Under the pieces are notes generated by a model that saw nothing but the letters and a program-made list of their open reading frames with translations, did no database searches and had not been told where the DNA came from. A stretch of 64,000 nt of DNA from an uncultured Desulfobacterales bacterium (GTDB taxonomy: Bacteria > Desulfobacterota > Dissulfuribacteria > Dissulfuribacterales > QOAL01), in the NCBI GenBank assembly GCA_964638145.1, contig CAZXAK010000040.1, positions 3,852 through 67,851 on the forward strand. Reading direction: 5' to 3'. The position numbers and the translations under genes were made by a program. Below are positions 194-53,371 of the stretch, piece after piece (position 1 is the stretch's first letter; every line of letters starts with the position of its first letter).

Positions 194-365
194 CCTGAGT
201 TGAGCGATTCCCAAATCTGCCTCAGGTGCAGGGCAGAGGGTACGCAGACGTAATGTTGTATTTCAAGTATCCTACAGACAAGCGAAGAGTCGGACGCAAC
301 AGATCATGCAAAATTGGGAATAAAGACAAAACAAAATTCTACATGATTTGAAACGCTCATTTAGG
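194..365 (+). mobile_element. Family-A MITE-like inverted-repeat element, copy A1 (172 bp; modules L+M1+M2+R)
   Basis: Termini CCTGAGTTGAGCG...CGCTCATTTAGG are inverted repeats and match the copies at 5353, 12680, 20725, 27227 and 47482. The internal block GGTACGCAGACGTAATGTTGTATTTCAAGTATCC is shared with A5 and A6. Confidence 0.8.
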
Positions 366-3184: not shown

Positions 3185-3361
3185 CATGCTGCACGACATC
3201 TGAGATGCATAAGCAATTGGCAAAGGCAGATGGTGCTTTTTCTCATGGTTTTGACCACGGACAAATATATCATTCACAAGTCACTGCAACTAATGAGCTT
3301 TAAAACATGATAAAAGCGCCATAGCCTGTACAGGTATCATTAGGTGTCATATCGTGTACAT
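3185..3361 (+). mobile_element. Family-B MITE-like element, copy B1 (degenerate ends)
   Basis: Left end CATGCTGCACGAC. The core GATGGTGCTTTTTCTCATGGTTTTGACC...GAGCTTTAAAACATGATAAAAGCGCCAT is collinear with B2-B4. The right end GTCATATCGTGTACAT is degraded and no TSD is visible. Confidence 0.7.
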
Positions 3362-4875: not shown

Positions 4876-5109
4876 TGCACAAGGACTGAATATGCAGTAA
4901 CTGTTCACAGGGGTTTTTGCGGAGGTATTATTACTTCAAATGCCTGACAGGCAGACGAAGCCCCATAGGCAGTAGATGGGGGACCCTATGTGCAGATACA
5001 ATATGCCTGTCTATGTGCTCGCTGATGTTGACTAAAGGCTCAAATGGTAGTTTTTTATGGCCTGCTGCCCGTAGGCAGTAAAATAGACAAACAATCAGGA
5101 GAAAATATA

Positions 5110-5322: not shown

Positions 5323-5352
5323 ACGCCTGTACAGACACCAACCTTACCTATG

Positions 5353-5461
5353 CCTAAATTGAGCGATTCCCAAGTTTGCATGAGATGCAAGGCAACAGCA
5401 ACAATCCACTGCCATTAAAGACAAAACAAAATTCCACATGATTTGAAACGCTCAATTTAGG
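5353..5461 (+). mobile_element. Family-A element, copy A2 (109 bp)
   Basis: CCTAAATTGAGCGATTCCCAAGTTTGCATGAGATGCAAGG...TTCCACATGATTTGAAACGCTCAATTTAGG. Flanks are CTATG / TTATG. Confidence 0.85.
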
Positions 5462-5734
5462 TTATGATTTGACCGGGATAAAGGAAGCTGCCTTTCCCGG
5501 TCTTCAATCTTTTGGTATCAGGTATTTCAGACGTGGTTCAACTATTCTTCACACCTTTTGCAAGGCGCACGGCATGTATGTCTGAGTGAAGGTCCTCTCA
5601 GTAGGGATATACATACAGTACCACAACTATCTGTAACAATAGGGCATTGTAACCCCTGTTCACCAAAGAGGGGGCATTCATGTTCGTCTCGCATTATGTT
5701 TGACGTGCAGCATCGCACCTCTTTACACATGTCC

Positions 5735-5888
5735 CATGCTACAGGACACGTTAAGGGCAGATGGTACCTTTATCACGTTTTTTTAGAGCGCATCAGTTGC
5801 GAACAGCTATTTATGAATTTTGCCAGCGGTTAAAACCGTGAAAAAAGGCACCACACACCCCTGTCATTCAGCTTCGTCCCGTGGCATG
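5735..5888 (-). mobile_element. Family-B element, copy B4 (154 bp)
   Basis: Ends CATGCTACAGGAC ... GTCCCGTGGCATG are inverted (10/13). Flanking 9-mers CACATGTCC / CGCATGACC match 7/9. The core is collinear with B2 in reverse orientation. Confidence 0.75.
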
Positions 5889-12662: not shown

Positions 12663-12679
12663 TCCAGACCTGCCGAATA

Positions 12680-12760
12680 CCTGAATTGAGCGATTCCCAT
12701 CAATTGCATGCAATTACAGATGAAATAAAATTTCACATGATTTGAAACGCTCAATTCAGG
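12680..12760 (+). mobile_element. Family-A element, copy A3 (81 bp)
   Basis: CCTGAATTGAGCGATTCCCATCAATTGCATG...TTTCACATGATTTGAAACGCTCAATTCAGG. It lies between the alaS stop and the rsbR Shine-Dalgarno. Confidence 0.85.
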
Positions 12761-12789
12761 TGAATACAGATCATAGGAGGATACACCGC

Positions 12790-13671
12790 ATGAACGAACT
12801 AAAGGATTATCAGAACGATGAGGGTTTCCTGTTTGAAATAGTAAATGCGGTGCCCTCCGGTATCTTTGTCACAGACCTGGAGCACAACATCCTTATCATA
12901 AACAAGGCCGCATCTGAAATGGTGGGCCTCAGGCCAGGGCAGTGTTTTGACAGGAAGTGCCATGAGATATTCAACACCCCCATGTGTGGCACCAACCAGT
13001 GCACCTGTCATGTGGCAATGGAGCAGAACCGTGTAAACCAGGGCCAGACCACCCTTCACACGGAAAAGGGTGAAATCGCCATTGAGTACGCCAGCCGTCC
13101 CCTGAAAAACCATGAGGGCAAGATCATTGGCTGCGTGGAGCACTTCATCGACATATCCGAACGTGTGGCCCAGGAGGAACTGATGCTGCAGCAGCAGGAG
13201 GAGCTGCTCCGCAAACGCGAGGAGGACATAAGGCACCTGCAGGAAGAGATTCTGGAACTCTCCACACCTGTAGTGGAGGTATGGGAAGGCGTGCTTGCCC
13301 TGCCACTCATAGGCACCCTTGACAGCCACCGCGCACGAAGCGCCATGGAACTACTGCTCGATGCCATTGAGAAGACCCGCTCCCCGTTTGTCATCATTGA
13401 TATTACAGGTGTCCCCACTGTTGACACAGAGGTGGCAAACCATCTGCTACAGACTGTTGATGCAGTCCGTCTCATGGGAAGCGAGGCCATACTTACCGGG
13501 GTCTCCACCCACATTGCCCTTACGATGGCCCATCTCGGGGTGGAGCTTGGTACCATAAAGGTGAGGAGCCGTATGGCAGATGCGCTCCATCTGGCCATAA
13601 GGGAACTGCACAGGCGCAAGCAGGACACCCCTTTGACAGAACTGATTCTCCGGGACGCTGTGAAAAACTGA
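12790..13671 (+). CDS. rsbR: RsbR-like stressosome sensor: N-terminal Cys-rich PAS domain plus C-terminal STAS domain
   Basis: The STAS region LSTPVVEVWEGVLALPLIGTLDSHRA...FVIIDITGVPTVDTEVANHL is the RsbR signature. PAS has C-x8-C-x4-C-x-CH. ATG 12790 lies 9 nt after AGGAGG; the track start at 12742 lies inside MITE A3. Confidence 0.85.
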   Translation: MNELKDYQNDEGFLFEIVNAVPSGIFVTDLEHNILIINKAASEMVGLRPGQCFDRKCHEIFNTPMCGTNQCTCHVAMEQNRVNQGQTTLHTEKGEIAIEYASRPLKNHEGKIIGCVEHFIDISERVAQEELMLQQQEELLRKREEDIRHLQEEILELSTPVVEVWEGVLALPLIGTLDSHRARSAMELLLDAIEKTRSPFVIIDITGVPTVDTEVANHLLQTVDAVRLMGSEAILTGVSTHIALTMAHLGVELGTIKVRSRMADALHLAIRELHRRKQDTPLTELILRDAVKN

Positions 13672-20695: not shown

Positions 20696-20724
20696 CGGCA
20701 GTTTAGCTCTGACAATATCTTTAA

Positions 20725-20776
20725 CCTGAATTGAGCATTTCAAATCATGTAAAATTTGGAAATCGCTCAATTCAGG
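20725..20776 (-). mobile_element. Family-A element, minimal copy A4 (52 bp; only the two end arms)
   Basis: CCTGAATTGAGCATTTCAAATCATGTAAAATTTGGAAATCGCTCAATTCAGG, flanked on both sides by TTTAA (20720-20724 and 20777-20781). Orientation is inverted relative to the other copies. Confidence 0.85.
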
Positions 20777-20837
20777 TTTAAATTGCATTACTGATTTCTA
20801 TCCAAACAGAAGTCTCTGCCATAATTAGACAGGTACC

Positions 20838-25336: not shown

Positions 25337-25505
25337 CATACTACACGACCCCTGAAATGCAGAAGCAATTGGCAAAGGCGGCGGATGGTGCTTTTTCTCA
25401 TGGTTTTGACCGCGAGCCAATATATCATCACCAAGTCATTGCAACTGATGAGCTTTAAAAGCATGATAAAAAGCACCATCCGTCGTATAGGTGTCGTGTA
25501 GTATG
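25337..25505 (+). mobile_element. Family-B MITE, reference copy B2 (169 bp) with perfect TIR and TSD
   Basis: Perfect 13-bp terminal inverted repeats CATACTACACGAC / GTCGTGTAGTATG. Perfect 9-bp direct repeat GCTCCAATG at 25328-25336 and 25506-25514. Internal 19/21 stem GGATGGTGCTTTTTCTCATGG / GCATGATAAAAAGCACCATCC. Confidence 0.9.
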
Positions 25506-26572: not shown

Positions 26573-27165
26573 CAGGTTCTGAACAGTTCTCTTTCCACCA
26601 GATCGCACAGGCAATGCGCAAGGAATATGTGCGATTCCTGAATCCTTGGCGTGTCCGAACACGCCACATTAACCACTATATCGCACAGAGGTCCCATGGC
26701 TCCGGGGTTGTTGCCGGTGAATCCGACTGTTATCGCCCCCCTATCGCGTGCAGCCTCAAGCCCCTTGACCACGTTGGGGGAATTCCCGCTGGTGCTGATA
26801 CCTATGACCACATCACCGGTTGAGGCAAGGGCCAGGACCTGCTTGGAAAATACCTGGTCATATGAGAAGTCATTGGATATGGATGTGAGCACAGAGGTAT
26901 CAGTAGTGAGAGCTATTGCAGCAAGAGGTTCTCTGTCAATACGGAAACGGTTTACGAACTCTGCCGCTATGTGCTGTGCATCTGCAGCGCTGCCGCCGTT
27001 TCCAAAGAGCAGGACCTTGCCTCCCTGTCCAAGCGACCTCACCACCTCTCCTGCAAGCATTGAAATGGCGTTGCCGCACTGCTCCACGCTGAGCCTTAAT
27101 GCTGAAACCGTATCATCAAGAGATCTTCCAAGAAGTCTGTGCGCGCTTTCTATCTGCATGGTCAT
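26572..27165 (-). CDS. gmhA: SIS-domain protein, phosphoheptose isomerase (GmhA/DiaA-like)
   Basis: LLFGNGGSAADAQHIAAEF...VVIGISTSGNSPNVV...ITVGFTG. Confidence 0.8.
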   Translation of the reverse strand: MTMQIESAHRLLGRSLDDTVSALRLSVEQCGNAISMLAGEVVRSLGQGGKVLLFGNGGSAADAQHIAAEFVNRFRIDREPLAAIALTTDTSVLTSISNDFSYDQVFSKQVLALASTGDVVIGISTSGNSPNVVKGLEAARDRGAITVGFTGNNPGAMGPLCDIVVNVACSDTPRIQESHIFLAHCLCDLVERELFRT

Positions 27166-27226
27166 GAAGAAAATAGAAAAGGATTACTGTGTCAAGACAC
27201 ATACTGCGGAACACCTGAAATACAGA

Positions 27227-27492
27227 CATGAATTGAGCGATTCCCAGGTTTGCATGAGATCCAAGGCGGAGGATACGCAGACGTACTGTTGTACTTCAAG
27301 TATCCCACAGGTAAGCGAAGACTCCGAGGCAGCAGATCATGCGAAATTGGGAATCCCGTAGCGGTTTCAAATTATGTAGAAAGCAAAACAGTTACAGCAA
27401 ACCCGTTGGGTGACGGATAATTTTAGCAGCATTAATTTATTGTAATTAAAGGCAAAATAATATTTCACATGATTTGAAACGCTCAATTCAGG
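27227..27492 (+). mobile_element. Family-A element, full-length composite copy A5 (266 bp; L+M1+M2+M3+M4+R)
   Basis: Ends CATGAATTGAGCG / CGCTCAATTCAGG. Arm 27239-27262 pairs with 27332-27355 (18/24). Arm 27361-27382 pairs with 27462-27482 (about 17/20). Contains every module seen in the shorter copies. Confidence 0.85.
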
Positions 27493-28126: not shown

Positions 28127-28147
28127 AAAACGACCTCTCTCCTGATC

Positions 28148-28310
28148 CATACTACCGGACACATATACGGCCGATGGTGTTTTTTTCTGTTTTTAAAGCT
28201 CATCAAGTTACAATGATCTGTTGATGATATGTTTGCCCGCGGTCAAAACCGTGCAAAAAGCACCATCGGCCTTGCCAGTTGCTTCTGCATTTCAGGTGTC
28301 CAGTAGTATG
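28148..28310 (-). mobile_element. Family-B element, copy B3 (163 bp)
   Basis: Ends CATACTACCGGAC ... GTCCAGTAGTATG (12/13 inverted). Flanking 9-mers CTCCTGATC / CCCCTGGTC match 7/9. Confidence 0.85.
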
Positions 28311-32612: not shown

Positions 32613-33530
32613 ATGAAAAGAGTTTCTTTAATCCTGCTAACCATCTGCTGTTTCTTCTTTTTAACCGTCTTTTCCGCAGTGGGAGAGGAAAAGGCAGCAC
32701 CAGCAGCAGAAAAACCGGCAAAGACAGAGACCAAGCAGGCGGCTCAACCCGAGGCCAAGAAGGGTGATGAGCAAAAAAGTGAGGCACAGGCAGCCTCCGA
32801 CCAGGAGAATGCAGGTATCGCGTTAACCGATGCCGACTGTGTCAAGTGTCACCGCAAGGAAGTGATGGATGTTGATGAAAACGGAGCATCCCACAAGGAC
32901 GTAGGCTGTACAGAGTGCCACCTTGAGCATCCGCCAGCAGGGAAGAACTGCATTCCTCAGTGCTCAATGTGTCACATGCCTGAAGACAACGAGCACTTCA
33001 AGGTGCAGGGATGTGTGGTATGCCACTATCCACACCATCCACTCAAGATCGATTTCACAAAGGCAAATCCTGCAAAGCCTGCCTGTATAGCCTGTCATGC
33101 CGAGCAGGATGCCGAGATGAAACTCCATCCCAGCGCACACTCAGAACAGGATTGCAACAACTGTCACTACTCTCATGGGCTTGGTGAGGGCCAGTACAAC
33201 ACATGTGTTGACTGTCACGAAGGCCATTCAGACGACATGACAGTTTCTGACTGCCTCAAGTGTCACAAGCCTCACAGCCCCACAGATGTAACTTATGGAG
33301 ACGACGTAGCCCCCAAGCTGTGCGCAGCATGTCACGATACGGAAGCAGGACTCCTTGCAGCATCCAAGACAGCTCACCATGACCTGGCCTGTGTTGAGTG
33401 TCACCCCGAACACCACAAGAACATAATGCAGTGTGAAGAGTGCCACGATCAGCCTCATGATGAGTACATACACAACAAGTTCCCCAAATGCCTTGACTGT
33501 CACAGGGATCCGCATAACCTTGCGAAGTGA
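32613..33530 (+). CDS. Dodecahaem cytochrome c (12 CxxCH; three tetrahaem modules A-B-C), secreted
   Basis: Signal peptide MKRVSLILLTICCFFFLTVFSA and a Lys/Glu/Ala-rich linker. 12 CxxCH counted by hand: CVKCH, CTECH, CSMCH, CVVCH, CIACH, CNNCH, CVDCH, CLKCH, CAACH, CVECH, CEECH, CLDCH. Confidence 0.92.
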   Translation: MKRVSLILLTICCFFFLTVFSAVGEEKAAPAAEKPAKTETKQAAQPEAKKGDEQKSEAQAASDQENAGIALTDADCVKCHRKEVMDVDENGASHKDVGCTECHLEHPPAGKNCIPQCSMCHMPEDNEHFKVQGCVVCHYPHHPLKIDFTKANPAKPACIACHAEQDAEMKLHPSAHSEQDCNNCHYSHGLGEGQYNTCVDCHEGHSDDMTVSDCLKCHKPHSPTDVTYGDDVAPKLCAACHDTEAGLLAASKTAHHDLACVECHPEHHKNIMQCEECHDQPHDEYIHNKFPKCLDCHRDPHNLAK

Positions 33531-33538
33531 TCCTGTTT

Positions 33539-33560
33539 GGCCCGCTCTATAGAGCGGGCC
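33539..33560 (+). other. Intercistronic perfect 9-bp stem-loop between cytochrome genes 1 and 2
   Basis: GGCCCGCTC-tata-GAGCGGGCC, 9 nt after the stop. No T-run follows. Confidence 0.55.
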
Positions 33561-33586
33561 TCATAAAAAGGGAAAAGGTGGTGAGG

Positions 33587-34861
33587 ATGAAAGCTCTTTT
33601 CAGTTACGGCTGGTTGTGGTCTCTGATCTTCCTGCTCTGTGCCTCTGGTGTAAGGGCCGAGGTCAAAGAGCCGGTACTGTCAGACAATGACTGCATAAAG
33701 TGTCATGATGATATTGTCTCAATGGTAAAAGGGCAGAAGTCAGCCCACAGGGACAAGATCGGGTGCCTTGACTGTCACAAGGGACACCCGCCTGCAGGCA
33801 AGGTAATCATTCCTAAGTGCAGTATGTGCCATGACCCTGCGGACAAGAAACACTTCACCCTCAAAGACTGCAAGAGATGCCACAATCCTCATGCACCAAT
33901 TATTACAGACTTTGCCAAACTCAAAAATGTCGCACCAGGCTGCATTACCTGTCATCCGCAGCCTGGTGAAGACCTGAAGAAATTTCCAAGTGCCCACTCC
34001 AAACAGGACTGCAACAACTGTCATACAGGCCATGGACTGAAAAAGGGCAGGTACCACACCTGTACTGACTGCCACAAGAAGCACGCTGACAACCTTACAA
34101 TCAAGGACTGCCTAGCATGTCACAGCCCGCACAAACCGGCTGTTTACATCTGGACAAAGCAGGCCACGGCTGACAGATGCGCTGCGTGCCATAAAGATAT
34201 AGTCAAAACCTTTAAGAAAAGCGGTGGTGCTCACCTTGAAAACCTCCAGTGCATAGAGTGCCATGAGAAACATCCACCTCACAAGGAGGGGGTTATTCCC
34301 AAGTGCCAGTCATGCCACAACCCTGATGAGAACAGACACTTTACAGCGGCTGACTGTACGAAATGCCACGATCCGCATGCACCTATGGAATTCGACCTGT
34401 CAAAGGTCAAGGACGTAAAACCCGCATGTGCCACCTGTCACGAAGGGCCGGTCAAGGAGATGAAACTCCATCCGAGTGCCCATGCCAAACTTGATTGCAA
34501 TGCATGCCACAGGGTTCACGGCCAGTTCCTCAAGTGTACGGAGTGTCATGATCCGCACAGCCCTGACATGAAGTATGAGGACTGCCTCAAGTGCCACCAG
34601 CCGCACGCCCCGACACTCCTGGAGTATGGTTCCAGTATCAAGCCAGCCCTGTGCGGTGCATGTCACCAGCAGGAGGCTGCAGAACTTGAGACAAATACCA
34701 CCAAGCATCATGAGTTGAACTGCGCGTTCTGTCACAGGAGAAGACACAAGTCTATTCTGACGTGTGTGGAGTGTCACGGAGAGCCACACAGAAAATCCGT
34801 GCACAAGCAGTATACTGACTGCCACACCTGTCATGGCAGTCCTCATGCGCTTCAGAAATAA
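33587..34861 (+). CDS. Icosahaem cytochrome c (20 CxxCH; modules A-B-A-B-C), secreted
   Basis: ATG 33587 after GGTGGTGAGG. Signal peptide MKALFSYGWLWSLIFLLCASGVRA. 20 CxxCH counted by hand. Confidence 0.92.
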   Translation: MKALFSYGWLWSLIFLLCASGVRAEVKEPVLSDNDCIKCHDDIVSMVKGQKSAHRDKIGCLDCHKGHPPAGKVIIPKCSMCHDPADKKHFTLKDCKRCHNPHAPIITDFAKLKNVAPGCITCHPQPGEDLKKFPSAHSKQDCNNCHTGHGLKKGRYHTCTDCHKKHADNLTIKDCLACHSPHKPAVYIWTKQATADRCAACHKDIVKTFKKSGGAHLENLQCIECHEKHPPHKEGVIPKCQSCHNPDENRHFTAADCTKCHDPHAPMEFDLSKVKDVKPACATCHEGPVKEMKLHPSAHAKLDCNACHRVHGQFLKCTECHDPHSPDMKYEDCLKCHQPHAPTLLEYGSSIKPALCGACHQQEAAELETNTTKHHELNCAFCHRRRHKSILTCVECHGEPHRKSVHKQYTDCHTCHGSPHALQK

Positions 34862-34920
34862 TCCCTGATACGCCTTTTTCGGAGTGGAGATTGAAAAAAC
34901 AGGGATTGACAATTGGTTCT

Positions 34921-34955
34921 GCAGGCCCTTCTATCAACACCATGAAGGGGCCTGC
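34921..34955 (+). terminator. Stem-loop (possible attenuator or partial terminator) between cytochrome genes 2 and 3
   Basis: GCAGGCCCTTC / GAAGGGGCCTGC: 11 bp with one bulge and a 12-nt loop, followed by AATTTGTAT. Confidence 0.4.
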
Positions 34956-35113
34956 AATTTGTATATCATGGTAGAGACCTTTGTTTTGTCGTACCATCGT
35001 GCAGAAAATGTACCTTTGCAATACCACATGCCCTGAAACACTCTATTAATCCACTTTTTCACAATCACGCTTTCAGAGCATGGCAATAAGCAGGGGGAGG
35101 AGAGCAGGGTAAG

Positions 35114-36097
35114 ATGAAAAAAGACAACCGGAGAAAACAGTTCAGCCTCTTAGCATGTTGCTGTCTTATCTCTTTCATTTTTCTTATGTCTCATGGGGTG
35201 TATGCCTCTGAGAAGAGTGCCACTGAGACAAAAGAAAAGGCAACCCGGCAACAGGAAGAAACTGTCACCAAGGCAACGGGGAAAGAGGGCAGCAAAAAGG
35301 TCGTCAAGGAAAAGACTCCACCTGCAAAGAAAGCCGGGGGGGAGGATATCTACAGTGAGGATATCAAGCCTCTGACCTCAAGGGAGTGCGCCAGGTGTCA
35401 CTACACGGTATATCTTGCAATAAAACAGGGTAAGGGTGCACACAAGAAGGCCTGTACATTCTGCCACAAGACCTATCACAACTTCCAGCGCGGACTAACG
35501 TGGGACCAGCGTGTACCTCACTGCGTAAACTGCCACAAGCTCCCTCATGGAGATTCCAATGGCATGAGACAGTGCCTCAAGTGTCACACCAATGCACATG
35601 CGCCGCTTGCCAGCATCAAGATGAAGGTCATAGAGCCCATGTGCTCCACCTGTCATGCCAAACAGGCCAAGGAACTTAAGGACTATCCAAGCGGTCACTC
35701 TGCAGTCAACTGCGCTGTCTGCCACCATGATACCCACGGTTTCAGGCCGGCATGTACCGAGTGTCATGAAAAACCCCATACCGCCTACAAGGACAATGCA
35801 GGGTGTATGGCCTGTCACAAGCCACACATGCCCAAGAACATAACCTATGGCCCTGATGTCCCCAACACCATATGTGCCGGATGCCACAAGGGTCCGGTGG
35901 AGAGGATGAAATCAACTACCTCTGCCCACGGCCAGCTGAAGTGTGTGTTCTGTCACGCCCAAAAGCATGGAAACATACCAAAATGCCAGCTCTGTCACTC
36001 TATTCCACATGCAAAAAAGATGATTGAAAAGTTCGGGGACTGCAGCAAGTGCCACGGCAACCCCCACGACCTCAACATGAAAAAGACCAAGAAATAG
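35114..36097 (+). CDS. Dodecahaem cytochrome c (12 CxxCH; modules A'-B-C), secreted
   Basis: Signal peptide and a Lys/Glu-rich linker. 12 CxxCH: CARCH, CTFCH, CVNCH, CLKCH, CSTCH, CAVCH, CTECH, CMACH, CAGCH, CVFCH, CQLCH, CSKCH. Confidence 0.92.
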   Translation: MKKDNRRKQFSLLACCCLISFIFLMSHGVYASEKSATETKEKATRQQEETVTKATGKEGSKKVVKEKTPPAKKAGGEDIYSEDIKPLTSRECARCHYTVYLAIKQGKGAHKKACTFCHKTYHNFQRGLTWDQRVPHCVNCHKLPHGDSNGMRQCLKCHTNAHAPLASIKMKVIEPMCSTCHAKQAKELKDYPSGHSAVNCAVCHHDTHGFRPACTECHEKPHTAYKDNAGCMACHKPHMPKNITYGPDVPNTICAGCHKGPVERMKSTTSAHGQLKCVFCHAQKHGNIPKCQLCHSIPHAKKMIEKFGDCSKCHGNPHDLNMKKTKK

Positions 36098-43594: not shown

Positions 43595-43823
43595 ATTAAT
43601 GAAAAATGTGATAAAGTTGATTTAATATCATATCTTGAAAAATAGCAGGAACTTATTTTTTTATCTGTACGTTTACCATTGTCCTCCACAACCGTGACTG
43701 ATATTCACCAGCAGCGGAATACCACATCCATGTATAATTGCAATGGTCAATGTATGTATTACATTACAATCTTTTTCAAGAAATATTTTCACAATATTAT
43801 ATGCACGATAGAGAGGGAGGAAA

Positions 43824-44882
43824 GTGAGCATTACAAAAGAAACCGTGCTTGAAGCACTGAAAGATATCAAGGACCCTGAACTGAACAGGGGTATCGTTGA
43901 ACTTGGAATGATACAGAACGTAGAGATTGCCGGGTCTGCAGTCCGTGTAACTGTAGCACTTACCATGGCAGGATGCCCCTTCAAGGACCAGATCAAGGAG
44001 GAGGTAAGGTCTGCATTACTATCCATTCCAGGCATTGAGGAGGCCAGGGTCATCATAACCACCATGACATCTGAACAACGTGCCAAGGTGTTTGGCAATG
44101 CACCTTCCGAGATGGAGGGCATGAAAGATGTCAAGAACGTAGTGGCTGTAGCAAGTGGAAAAGGGGGAGTTGGCAAGAGCACAGTGTCTGTGAACCTTGC
44201 GTTAACACTGTCCAAAAAGGGGTACAAGACAGGCATACTTGATGCCGACATGCATGGTCCGGACATACCGGTGATGATGGGAACCAAGGAAAGGCCGGTT
44301 GGGTCAAGAGGAATGCTCATGCCGCTTGAAAAATACGGGGTCAAGCTCATGTCAACAGCTACCCTTGCAGGCGAAGGGACCCCTGTGATCTGGCGTGGAC
44401 CTCTTGTCAACAAGGCCATCAAGGAATTTCTTGGACATGTGGAGTGGGGAGAACTCGACTTTCTTGTGGTAGATCTGCCACCAGGCACTGGGGATGCGCC
44501 TCTTACCGTTGCATCAACAATACCCATCTCAGGTGTGGTGGTGGTAACTACTCCGCAGCGGGTTGCCTTGGAGGACGTAAGGCGCTCAATCGCGCTGTTC
44601 AAGACACATGACGTGCCTGTTACTGGCATAGTGGAAAACATGTCTTATCTTAAACTTCCAGGAAGTGACAACGAAGTCATGGAGGTATTTGGCAGTGGGG
44701 GAGGGGAGAAGATAGCCAAGGCATTCAAACTGCCTCTGCTCGGCAAAATTCCCCTTGACCCTGCCATAAGAGAGGGGGGTGACAAGGGACGACCTGTGGC
44801 CCTTGATGACAACAGCGATGCGGCCAGGGCCTTTGAAGAGATAACTGACAATTTTCTCGCTGCATTACAGCAGAAGGACTGA
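43824..44882 (+). CDS. apbC: Fe-S cluster carrier ATPase Mrp/ApbC with N-terminal DUF59-like domain
   Basis: VAVASGKGGVGKSTVSVNLA, with N-terminal ALKDIKDPELNRGIVELGMI. GTG start at 43824. Confidence 0.9.
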   Translation: MSITKETVLEALKDIKDPELNRGIVELGMIQNVEIAGSAVRVTVALTMAGCPFKDQIKEEVRSALLSIPGIEEARVIITTMTSEQRAKVFGNAPSEMEGMKDVKNVVAVASGKGGVGKSTVSVNLALTLSKKGYKTGILDADMHGPDIPVMMGTKERPVGSRGMLMPLEKYGVKLMSTATLAGEGTPVIWRGPLVNKAIKEFLGHVEWGELDFLVVDLPPGTGDAPLTVASTIPISGVVVVTTPQRVALEDVRRSIALFKTHDVPVTGIVENMSYLKLPGSDNEVMEVFGSGGGEKIAKAFKLPLLGKIPLDPAIREGGDKGRPVALDDNSDAARAFEEITDNFLAALQQKD

Positions 44883-47481: not shown

Positions 47482-47696
47482 CCTGAATTGAACAATTCCC
47501 AAGTTTGCATGAGATGCAAGGCAGAGGATACGCAGACGTACTGTTATACTTCAATTATCCGACAGGTAAGCGAAGACTCCGGGACAGTTACATCAAACCC
47601 GTTGAGTGACGGGTAATTTTACAAAAAAAACAGCATTAATTTACTGTAATTAAAGATAAAACAAGATTTCACATGATTTGAAGCGCTCAATTCAGC
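47482..47696 (+). mobile_element. Family-A element, copy A6 (215 bp; L+M1+M4+R)
   Basis: CCTGAATTGAACAATTCCCAAGTTTGCATGAGATGCAAGGCAGAGGATACGCAGACG...TTTCACATGATTTGAAGCGCTCAATTCAGC. Flanks are TCTGA / TTTGA. Confidence 0.85.
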
Positions 47697-53101: not shown

Positions 53102-53305
53102 TGTCTGACTCTCCCTGTATTTTTAACAAACACACCCCTATTCTCCCCTATTGCATATGTGCCACCACACCTCTCCCATCCTGATAAAGGGGAATATATG
53201 TTAAACAGGTCCCTGTTTCAAGGTGGTTAACTCTCCCGTGAAAATAGATACAGTTTTCCAGCAACTTTTCATGTTCCAAATGTATCTGCTTACAGGGTGC
53301 TACAG

Positions 53306-53367
53306 CAGATGCAAGGCGGTGGATACGCAGGCATACTCCCTGTCTTTATAAATGCCCCACAGGTAAG
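53306..53367. repeat. Solo copy of the M1 block of family-A elements
   Basis: CAGATGCAAGGCGGTGGATACGCAGGCATACT...CCCCACAGGTAAG against A5 GAGATCCAAGGCGGAGGATACGCAGACGTACT...TCCCACAGGTAAG. No family-A termini are nearby. Confidence 0.6.
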
Positions 53368-53371
53368 GCCA

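What the first reader, a model, noticed from the sequence alone, without database searches (positions are those of the whole stretch)
27227..27492. Family-A element: a 266-bp composite inverted-repeat unit with six intergenic copies forming a nested-deletion series
Six copies (194-365, 5353-5461, 12680-12760, 20725-20776, 27227-27492, 47482-47696) share the termini CCTGAATTGAGCG...CGCTCAATTCAGG. The longest copy predicts a Y-shaped fold. The 13-bp ends close it. Arm 27239-27262 pairs with 27332-27355 and is capped by block M1. Arm 27361-27382 pairs with 27462-27482 and is capped by block M4, which has its own hairpins ACCCGT/ACGGGT and TTAATT/AATTAA. Shorter copies are clean internal deletions of whole modules (L+M1+M2+R, L+M1+M4+R, L+R). 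No transposase is present, and six copies in 64 kb is a high density. That pattern fits a MITE, but the modular architecture would also fit a family of structured RNAs.
Basis: seen in the sequence. Interest (0 to 1): 0.6.

Follow-up and report, generated by a model that had tools for sequence, protein, structure and literature searches.

The report
Miniature transposon family with 5-bp duplications
The repeat is a family of small non-coding "hitch-hiker" transposons (MITEs) that recently multiplied between the genes of one uncultured sulfur-cycle bacterium; this is an ordinary kind of element, although this particular family appears undescribed.

Summary
All six copies, their CCTGAATTGAGCG termini and the Y-shaped fold are present, far beyond chance.

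The element is a MITE. Contigs of the same organism from a JGI metagenome, plus the window, gave 37 two-ended copies. Their 272-bp master consensus has 17 near-full-length copies at 89-98.5% identity.
- **Target-site duplications:** 17 of 37 copies have a perfect 5-bp A/T-rich duplication and 9 more match 4 of 5.
- **Empty sites:** the sites of window copies 2, 3 and 5 are empty in sister genomes. Copy 1 is shared with one of them.
- **Short copies:** they are single internal deletions of the master. Breakpoints are heterogeneous, not whole modules, and some deleted forms recur at several loci, so about 50 bp of termini suffice for mobility.

The structured-RNA alternative is not supported. 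There is no Rfam match and no covariation beyond controls. One-sided changes give as many A-C as G-U pairs, and copies lie in both orientations.

No transposase was found in the window or in 433 kb of held sequence. The 13-bp CCT... ends and 5-bp AT-rich duplications resemble ISEcp1 of the IS1380 family. That is a lead, not a demonstrated membership.

Module M1 is shared with a second repeat family, so the element is a mosaic. Verdict: new member of a known kind, modest interest.

The parts
27227..27492 (+). Focal copy 5: near-full-length MITE, 266 bp, 93.8% identical to the 272-bp family consensus. It has a 6-bp deletion in the A-run and no recognisable target-site duplication (ACAGA / TGGAA).
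   Evidence: The site lacks the element in sister MAG GCA_054039495.1 (L046) and in L047-L049.
27227..27239 (+). Left terminal inverted repeat, CATGAATTGAGCG (consensus CCTGAATTGAGCG).
27480..27492 (+). Right terminal inverted repeat, CGCTCAATTCAGG.
27240..27354 (+). Arm 1: a long imperfect hairpin. The stem is ATTCCCAGGTTTGCATGAG... pairing with ...CATGCGAAATTGGGAAT. It is capped by module M1 (about 27264-27335), which is shared with a second repeat family.
   Evidence: fold; M1 sharing
27364..27479 (+). Arm 2: a long imperfect hairpin. The stem is GGTTTCAAATTATGTAGAAA pairing with TTTCACATGATTTGAAAC. It carries inner hairpins CCGT/ACGG and TTAATT/AATTAA and a weak terminator-like stem at 27403-27416.
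194..365 (+). Copy 1: 172 bp, deletion of consensus 128-226, about 86% identity. This is an old copy and has no target-site duplication left.
   Evidence: An orthologous decayed copy lies at the same site in L040 4588-4668.
5353..5461 (+). Copy 2: 109 bp, deletion of consensus 42-204. Target-site duplication CTATG / TTATG (5348-5352 and 5462-5466). It lies between the rpmE stop codon and the rpmE terminator hairpin.
   Evidence: The site is empty in L040 and L041.
12680..12760 (+). Copy 3: 81 bp, essentially the two ends plus a short hairpin. GAATA is duplicated at 12675-12679 and 12762-12766, with one extra T at 12761. It lies 17 bp after the alaS stop codon and 29 bp before the next start codon.
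   Evidence: The empty site in L041 reads CTGCTGAATACAAACC.
20725..20776 (-). Copy 4: minimal 52-bp form with the ends only (deletion of consensus 22-241), in inverted orientation. It has a perfect target-site duplication, TTTAA at 20720-20724 and 20777-20781.
47482..47696 (+). Copy 6: 215 bp, deletion of consensus 103-161. Target-site duplication TCTGA / TTTGA (4 of 5 match).

Best explanation

**Anatomy.** The elements are non-coding and non-autonomous. The master form is 272 bp. It carries 13-bp terminal inverted repeats, CCTGAATTGAGCG...CGCTCAATTCAGG.

**Mechanism.** A DDE-type transposase encoded elsewhere in the genome moves the copies in trans. The enzyme binds the two ends. It inserts the element at staggered cuts 5 bp apart in A/T-rich intergenic DNA, with target preference T-W-A-N-A. 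Repair of the gaps leaves a 5-bp direct duplication on each side.

**History.** The family expanded recently and specifically in the lineage of the window, an uncultured member of Thermodesulfobacteriota (Desulfobacterota). Density in the window is about one copy per 10 kb.

**Internal structure.** The two long hairpin arms are inherited from the master copy and are not needed for movement. Internally deleted derivatives as short as 52-98 bp still carry perfect duplications. Some of them recur at several loci with the same deletion.

**What is shown.** The terminal repeats, the 5-bp duplications, the copy number and similarity, the empty sites in sister genomes, and the dispensability of the interior.

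**What is inferred.**
- Action of a transposase in trans.
- Its family. An IS1380-like enzyme is the best guess, from the short CCT... ends and the 5-bp AT-rich duplications. I put this at about 0.4.
- Copies lying inside transcription units (copy 2 before the rpmE terminator, copy 3 between alaS and the next start codon) put long hairpins into mRNAs. This could alter mRNA stability or termination as a side effect.
For: **Terminal repeats.** They are far above chance.

**Same organism sampled elsewhere.** 36 contigs of JGI metagenome Ga0256914 carry the element. L013 overlaps the window end at 99.98% identity.

**Copies and consensus.** There are 37 two-ended copies plus half copies. Seventeen copies of 266-274 bp are 89-98.5% identical to one 272-bp consensus.

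**5-bp duplications.** 17 of 37 are perfect and 9 of 37 match 4 of 5. No other length fits, and shifted controls give 0-2. Within the duplication, T is at position 1 in 13 of 17 and A at position 5 in 15 of 17.

**Empty sites.**
- The rpmE-prfA site is empty in L040 and L041.
- The alaS-PAS site is empty in L041.
- The focal FMN-reductase/SIS site lacks the element in L046-L049.
- Copy 1 is orthologous and decayed in L040.

**Lineage-specific burst.** About 100 kb from related MAGs holds only that one decayed copy.

**Deleted forms still move.** The 255-bp form (del 85-101) occurs at 5 loci and the 97/98-bp form at 2 loci.

**Other points.**
- A second MITE family is nested inside one copy.
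- Short-read contigs break at copies.
- All window copies are intergenic.

**IS1380 lead.** ISEcp1 has IRL CCTAGATTCTACGT, IRR reverse complement CCTAAATTCCACGT, and 5-bp AT-rich direct repeats (PMC6061673; sequence read).
Against: - No autonomous partner or any transposase was found. The window ORFs have none. No IS-sized pair of terminal repeats exists in the held DNA. There is no tblastn hit to the ISEcp1 transposase in 433 kb.
- Plasmid and viral collections gave nothing.
- 11 of 37 copies, including the focal copy, lack a recognisable duplication.
- The exact R-end 25-mer has only one hit among the representative genomes of 185,579 species, so the distribution is known from very few genomes.
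- There is a mild, non-significant excess of sense orientation between co-directional genes: 14 against 5, or 14 against 7 after adding window copies 1 and 5 by hand. My binomial p values are 0.06 and 0.19.
- Two adjacent compensatory pairs occur in the inner M1 hairpin between families A and C. These leave room for some structural constraint.
Confidence: 0.9

Rival explanations
1. Family A is primarily a family of structured RNAs, either cis-regulatory or small RNA. The Y-shaped fold would be the selected function and repetition would reflect gene duplication.
For: - The fold is very stable (z = -9).
- Copies 2 and 3 must be co-transcribed with flanking genes, judging from position.
- There is a mild excess of sense orientation.
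- Two compensatory pairs occur in the M1 inner hairpin between families A and C.
Against: - No Rfam family matches at gathering or at E <= 5.
- There is no covariation beyond controls: 94.7% against 94.5% paired, and the RNAalifold covariation term is about 0.
- One-sided changes are G-U 60 against A-C 52, so neither strand is favoured.
- Copies occur in both orientations and between convergent genes.
- Derivatives that lack almost the whole structure still spread with perfect duplications.
- The 5-bp duplications and empty sites are the signature of DNA transposition, not of gene duplication.
Confidence: 0.04
2. The copies are independently decayed remnants (solo ends joined by deletion) of full-length insertion sequences that once sat at each site. 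They would not be a non-autonomous unit that transposes as such.
For: - Heterogeneous internal deletions and half copies exist.
- A lone R end lies in a distant MAG.
Against: - 17 loci share the same 272-bp structure with the same internal junction. Sub-forms with identical deletions recur at 5 loci and at 2 loci. That requires amplification of the short unit itself.
- No copy retains any coding remnant.
- No IS-sized element was seen in 433 kb.
Confidence: 0.03
3. It is a REP/BIME-like palindromic repeat spread by a RAYT (Y1, IS200/IS605-like) enzyme or by recombination, not by a DDE transposase.
For: - The copies are intergenic and palindromic, with high density and a mosaic modular make-up with other repeat families.
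Against: - REP and RAYT systems do not make fixed-length target duplications (established knowledge). Here the 5-bp duplication is exact.
- The elements have true terminal inverted repeats and are 5-10 times longer than REPs.
- No Y1 transposase family appears in the window ORFs.
Confidence: 0.02

Closest known systems
ISEcp1 and other IS1380-family insertion sequences (candidate mobilising family)
   Same: - The terminal repeats are short (13-14 bp) and begin CCT. ISEcp1 has IRL CCTAGATTCTACGT and IRR reverse complement CCTAAATTCCACGT. The MITE has CCTGAATTGAGCG, with variant CCTAAATTGAGCG in copy 2.
- Both make 5-bp A/T-rich target duplications (PMC6061673; sequence read).
   Different: - The MITE has no transposase gene, and none of this family was detected in the held DNA.
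- The sequences diverge beyond the first 8 bases of the ends.
- ISEcp1 is 1.66 kb and comes from Enterobacterales.
- Membership is untested at the decisive point, a transposase-bearing element with the same ends.
Correia elements / NEMIS of Neisseria (bacterial MITEs)
   Same: - Size range of about 100-160 bp and upward, with terminal inverted repeats and a fixed target duplication.
- Hundreds of intergenic copies, internally deleted size classes, and co-transcription into hairpin-forming mRNA.
- These Correia properties are from established knowledge and were not tested here.
   Different: - Correia elements have 26-bp terminal repeats and a TA duplication, and they fold as a single hairpin.
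- This family has 13-bp repeats, a 5-bp duplication and a two-armed (Y-shaped) 272-bp master.
- There is no sequence similarity.
ERIC/IRU and BOX/RUP repeats (enterobacterial and pneumococcal intergenic repeats)
   Same: - Imperfect palindromes in intergenic or 3'-UTR positions.
- Size variants produced by internal deletions or insertions, and a modular make-up (BOX A-B-C).
   Different: - For ERIC and BOX, target duplications and terminal repeats are not the defining, demonstrable feature. Here they are explicit.
- Different phylum and no sequence similarity.
MITEAba12 of Acinetobacter (PMC6382973)
   Same: A bacterial non-autonomous IS-derived element recognised by terminal repeats plus target-site duplication, with copies spread over a lineage (title and abstract seen).
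   Different: The sequence, host and presumed parent IS differ. That paper was not read in detail.

Membership tests
MITE (non-autonomous DDE-type DNA transposon) | Terminal inverted repeats at both ends | tested here: met
   13-bp CCTGAATTGAGCG / CGCTCAATTCAGG lies at both ends of 37 copies.
MITE (non-autonomous DDE-type DNA transposon) | Target-site duplication of fixed length flanking the element | tested here: met
   The duplication is 5 bp. It is perfect in 17 of 37 copies and matches 4 of 5 in 9 more. Other lengths and offsets give 0-2.
MITE (non-autonomous DDE-type DNA transposon) | Small size and no coding capacity | tested here: met
   Copies are 52-274 bp, plus one 418-bp copy with a nested insert. 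This is too short for a transposase.
MITE (non-autonomous DDE-type DNA transposon) | Many similar copies at unrelated loci | tested here: met
   There are 6 copies in the 64-kb window and at least 37 two-ended copies in the held contigs of the organism. Full-length copies are 89-98.5% identical to the consensus.
MITE (non-autonomous DDE-type DNA transposon) | Insertion polymorphism (filled against empty orthologous sites) | tested here: met
   The sites of copies 2, 3 and 5 are empty in sister MAGs. The junctions of copies 2 and 3 are alignable to the base.
MITE (non-autonomous DDE-type DNA transposon) | An autonomous element with the same ends that supplies the transposase | tested here: inconclusive
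   None was found in the window or in 433 kb of held DNA.
IS1380-family derivative | Short terminal repeats starting CC, and a 4-5-bp (ISEcp1: 5-bp, AT-rich) duplication | tested here: met
   One search compared with PMC6061673 and the ISEcp1 sequence. The first 8 bases match at 7-8 of 8 with the ISEcp1 IRR.
IS1380-family derivative | An IS1380-type DDE transposase in the same genome, bounded by the same ends | tested here: inconclusive
   tblastn with the ISEcp1 transposase gave no hit at E <= 1 in 433 kb. The whole genome was not available.
Structured RNA family | Match to a curated RNA family | tested here: not met
   There were 0 hits at gathering thresholds in the window. At E <= 5 only chance miRNA and snoRNA hairpins appeared.
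Structured RNA family | Compensatory substitutions that preserve the helices, on one strand | tested here: not met
   Searches show no excess over controls, and one-sided changes are G-U 60 against A-C 52. Power is limited by about 95% identity between copies.
Structured RNA family | Consistent orientation with respect to transcription | tested here: not met
   All four arrangements occur: sense, antisense, divergent and convergent. The sense excess is not significant (crude ORF-based gene calls).
REP/BIME with RAYT | Short (20-40 bp) palindromes without target duplication, associated with a Y1 transposase | tested here: not met
   A 5-bp duplication is present, the element has a 272-bp master, and the window ORFs have no Y1 transposase.

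The most novel reading that the evidence does not exclude
Module M1 is the roughly 75-bp cap of arm 1, with conserved GTACTTCAAGT...CAGGTAAGCGAAGAC. It may be a functional structured unit in its own right, either an RNA motif or a protein-binding DNA hairpin, that is carried by two different repeat families.

It occurs at about 80% identity inside family A and inside a second hairpin repeat (family C) that has quite different closing stems. It is also present in sister genomes. Its inner helix shows two adjacent compensatory changes between the families: GGATAC/GTATCC against GGGCAC/GTGCCC.

If so, the MITE would be a vehicle that scatters a regulatory module through intergenic regions.
Probability: 0.1. 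Interest if true: 0.55.

Novelty: new member of a known kind. Interest (0 to 1): 0.3.

Why it matters
Bacterial MITEs are well known, so the class is not new. Three points are useful.

- **A clean example.** This is an apparently undescribed family in an uncultured Thermodesulfobacteriota lineage. It has explicit duplications, empty sites and a lineage-specific burst at about one copy per 10 kb.
- **A practical effect on assembly.** The element fragments short-read assemblies of this organism, because contigs end at copies. It also creates spurious ORF extensions, for example ORF 26651-27361, and TTG starts inside the right end.
- **An entry point to several questions.**
  - The deletion series defines the minimal cis-requirements for transposition, about 20 bp on the left and 30 bp on the right.
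  - The ends give a testable pointer to an IS1380-like transposase.
  - The long hairpins inserted into the rpmE 3' UTR and the alaS operon could be used to study MITE effects on mRNA in this phylum.

Tried and rejected
- **L006 pair of ends.** An apparent 2.9-kb pair of inverted R ends (L006 3131...6072) looked like a candidate autonomous IS. Its ORFs are a lytic transglycosylase/LysM protein and a methyltransferase-like gene, so it is two separate partial copies.
- **Terminal-repeat pairs.** A scan for the 13-mer with up to 1 mismatch found no IS-sized pairs in any held locus.
- **Plasmid collection.** blastn of the consensus gave only AT-rich chance hits.
- **Viral contigs.** Scans with the terminal repeat and with the M1 core both gave 0 hits.
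- **Representative genomes.** The scan found one lone 27-nt R end in a Desulfatiglandales MAG and no full copy.
- **Microhomology at deletion junctions.** The mean is 0.77 bp against 0.71 bp for random breakpoints, so there is no support for slippage between direct repeats.
- **Rfam at relaxed thresholds.** Chance hits only.
- **Promoter and terminator scan of the focal copy.** A weak terminator-like stem and two minus-strand promoter-like matches, not above what shuffles give. I did not build on them.
- **Organism name.** Cluster look-ups and a paper search on the sample accessions gave no names. Only phylum-level placement came from named RF-1 relatives at about 70-75% identity.
- **ISEcp1 transposase.** tblastn against all held DNA gave nothing.

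Full report
**Observation.** The 13-mer CCTGAATTGAGCG, allowing 2 mismatches, occurs 11 times in the window. Shuffles give 1.77 +/- 1.54, and none of 100 reaches 11. The twelfth end, the right end of copy 1, has a 1-bp deletion. The six copies align with one another. Copy 20725-20776 lies in the opposite orientation. A sensitive BLAST with the family consensus finds no further copy in the window.

- An 11-bp closing helix joins the two termini.
- Arm 1 spans 27240-27354 and arm 2 spans 27364-27479.
- The DNA z-score is -5.9.
- The 272-bp consensus gives z = -9.0 as RNA and -9.4 as DNA.

All six copies are intergenic among housekeeping genes: rho, rpmE, prfA, alaS, hflX, flgM and others. No long ORF of the window matches a transposase family.

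**Source and further copies.** The window is from an uncultured organism.
- It is 99.97% identical to an ENA metagenome contig, ERZ27262694 k141_289591.
- Named relatives of its RF-1, at about 70-75% identity, are Thermodesulfobacteriota/Desulfobacterota.
- A 25-mer of the right end has a single hit among the representative genomes of 185,579 species. That hit is a lone 27-nt end in a Desulfatiglandales MAG.
- A 22-mer pattern hits 36 contigs of one JGI metagenome, Ga0256914.
- One of those contigs, L013, overlaps the window end at 99.98% identity. They therefore sample the same organism.

From those contigs plus the window I extracted 37 copies with both ends. There are also half copies and two R'-R palindromic forms. 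Seventeen copies are 266-274 bp long and 89-98.5% identical to one 272-bp consensus. The focal copy is 93.8% identical to it.

**Transposition signature.** Seventeen of the 37 copies are flanked by a perfect 5-bp direct repeat. Examples are TTACA, CTAAA, TTATG, TGTCA, TTCCA, TAGCA and GTATA, and TTTAA around window copy 4. Nine more match at 4 of 5 positions, including window copies 2 and 6. The same comparison at other lengths or offsets gives 0-2 matches. The duplicated pentamers are A/T-rich. T is at position 1 in 13 of 17, and A is at position 5 in 15 of 17.

**Empty sites.** RF-1 and flavodoxin homologues led to syntenic contigs of sister MAGs.
- GCA_053991135.1 and GCA_054039495.1 have 97-98% protein identity to the window.
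- GCA_054035595.1 has about 87% identity, and there are further, more distant contigs.

Four window sites could be compared.
- **Copy 2 (rpmE-prfA spacer).** The window reads CACCAAC CTTACCTATG [copy 2] TTATG ATTTGACCGGG. L040 reads CACCAAC TATTTGACCGGG and L041 reads CACCAAC TATTTATAATTTGACCGGG.
- **Copy 3 (alaS-PAS spacer).** L041 reads CCTGCTGAATACAAACC where the window has CCTGCCGAATA [copy 3] TGAATACAGATC.
- **Copy 5 (focal, FMN-reductase/SIS spacer).** The spacer is 355 bp in the window. It is 80 bp in L046 and 67 bp in L047-L049, all without the element.
- **Copy 1.** It is shared with L040 in a decayed form at the same position, so it predates that split.

About 100 kb of relatives' DNA holds no other two-ended copy. 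The expansion is therefore specific to the window's lineage.

**Deletion series.** Each shorter copy aligns to the 272-bp consensus as essentially one internal deletion. The breakpoints differ from copy to copy, with no excess microhomology. The 'whole modules' idea does not generalise.

Identical deletions recur at different loci. The 255-bp form (del 85-101) occurs at five loci and the 97/98-bp form at two. Forms as short as 52 and 65 bp have perfect duplications. Only about 20 bp at the left end and 30 bp at the right end are therefore needed in cis, and the hairpin arms are dispensable for movement.

**Structured-RNA alternative.**
- Rfam gives nothing at gathering thresholds and only chance hairpin matches at E <= 5.
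- On a 24-copy alignment the Y-shaped structure is 94.7% paired, against 94.5% when 3' partners are shuffled within columns.
- Five pairs show double changes, against 2.7 +/- 1.4 in shuffles.
- The RNAalifold covariation term is about 0.
- One-sided changes give G-U 60 times and A-C 52 times. Neither strand is protected as an RNA.
- Substitution density is only slightly lower in paired columns (5.3%) than in unpaired columns (6.7%).
- With crude ORF-based gene calls, copies between co-directional genes are sense 14 and antisense 5. Adding window copies 1 and 5 by hand makes it 14 against 7. My binomial p values are 0.06 and 0.19.
- Five copies lie between divergent genes and two between convergent genes.

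The fold is thus a property inherited from the master copy. I found no evidence that it is maintained by selection. With copies about 95% identical, the power of this test is limited.

**Which transposase?** None was found.
- There is no IS-sized pair of terminal repeats in the held DNA.
- The one candidate pair, in L006, encloses ordinary genes.
- The plasmid and viral collections have nothing.

The combination of short ends beginning CCT with a 5-bp AT-rich duplication matches what is published for ISEcp1 of the IS1380 family. That element has IRL CCTAGATTCTACGT and 5-bp direct repeats such as TAATA and TAAGA (PMC6061673). Its other end read in reverse complement is CCTAAATTCCACGT. That is identical over the first 8 bases to the variant end CCTAAATTGAGCG of window copy 2. 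A tblastn with the ISEcp1 transposase finds nothing in 433 kb of held sequence. I treat IS1380 as a lead with probability about 0.4, not as an established membership.

**Mosaic nature.** Module M1, the cap of arm 1, also occurs at about 80% identity inside a different hairpin repeat, family C. Family C has the closing stem TATCTGCTTACAGGGT / ACCCTGTGAGCAGATA. It is found in the window at 4897-4998 and 53282-53370, in several Ga0256914 contigs, and in the sister MAG (L041). Chimeras with a family-A left end and a family-C right end exist, for example in L007.

The inner M1 helix differs between the families by two adjacent compensatory pairs. This could reflect a constraint on the hairpin or quasi-palindrome correction. 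The data cannot tell which.

A third family, B, has terminal repeats CATACTACACGAC...GTCGTGTAGTATG. It carries a 9-bp duplication, GCTCCAATG, at window 25337-25500 and has four copies in the window. It is nested inside a family-A copy in L026. The genome therefore carries several MITE-like families that insert into and recombine with one another.

**Likely consequences (inferred).** Copy 2 lies between the rpmE stop codon and the rpmE terminator hairpin. Copy 3 lies 17 bp after the alaS stop codon and 29 bp before the next start codon. Both should be transcribed within mRNAs and would add long hairpins to them. The same is known for Correia and ERIC elements (established knowledge, not tested here).

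**Verdict.** The RNA-family alternative is not supported. The family is a new member of a well-known kind, and interest is modest.

Noticed in passing
window 25337-25500; also 3185-3322, 28144-28310 (-), 5734-5853 (-); L026 about 440-600: A second MITE-like palindromic repeat, 'family B', about 165 bp, has terminal repeats CATACTACACGAC...GTCGTGTAGTATG. The copy at 25337-25500 is flanked by a 9-bp direct repeat, GCTCCAATG. One copy is nested inside a family-A element in L026.
   Followed up: partly
window 4897-4998 and 53282-53370; L008 3500-3660, L013 5850-5990, L006 5700-5870, L015 3760-3900, L041 12150-12400: A third repeat, 'family C', is a hairpin with stem TATCTGCTTACAGGGT / ACCCTGTGAGCAGATA. 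Its loop is about 80% identical to module M1 of family A. Chimeric A/C copies exist (L007 500-689). The inner M1 helix shows two adjacent compensatory pairs between the families.
   Followed up: partly
L001 1828-1855 (MAG Desulfatiglandales, JAWLEX010000065.1): A lone 27-nt exact right end of the element, plus weak similarity to the adjacent 25 nt, lies just upstream of a gene start in a distantly related MAG. There is no left end. It could be a remnant of horizontal spread or a mis-binned contig.
   Followed up: partly
L010 1-81 (start of contig Ga0256914_1002841): A terminus-like CCGGAATTGAGCG is joined to family-C-type sequence (GTCAGATATTCCGTAACTGTTCCCAGGG...) and runs off the contig start. 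It might be the end of a different element that uses the same terminal repeat.
   Followed up: no
L003 (starts at window 5432, inside copy 2); L050 (ends next to copy 4, about window 20830): Short-read contigs of run SRR8542060 break at MITE copies. This fits a high-copy repeat that fragments assemblies.
   Followed up: no
window 5467-5520: A terminator-like hairpin, CCGGGATAAAGG...CCTTTCCCGG followed by a T-rich run, lies immediately downstream of copy 2 and is conserved in L040 and L041. The MITE was therefore inserted between the rpmE stop codon and its terminator.
   Followed up: no
window 32613-36097: A cluster of multihaem c-type cytochrome genes carries repeated CxxCH-coding segments, which appear as direct repeat family D4.
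   Followed up: no
window 26651-27361 (+) and 12742-13671 (+): Mechanical ORFs run into or start inside the MITE. A 236-aa ORF with no Pfam hit overlaps the real SIS gene on the other strand and arm 1. A TTG 'start' also lies inside the right end. Both are likely annotation artefacts caused by the element.
   Followed up: partly
L043 16263-17130: In the more distant relative, a nucleotidyltransferase/HepT-like (MNT-HEPN) gene pair occupies the alaS-PAS spacer, where the window has MITE copy 3.
   Followed up: no
window 43673-44641 (-): A 322-aa ORF has no Pfam match at E <= 0.001.
   Followed up: no
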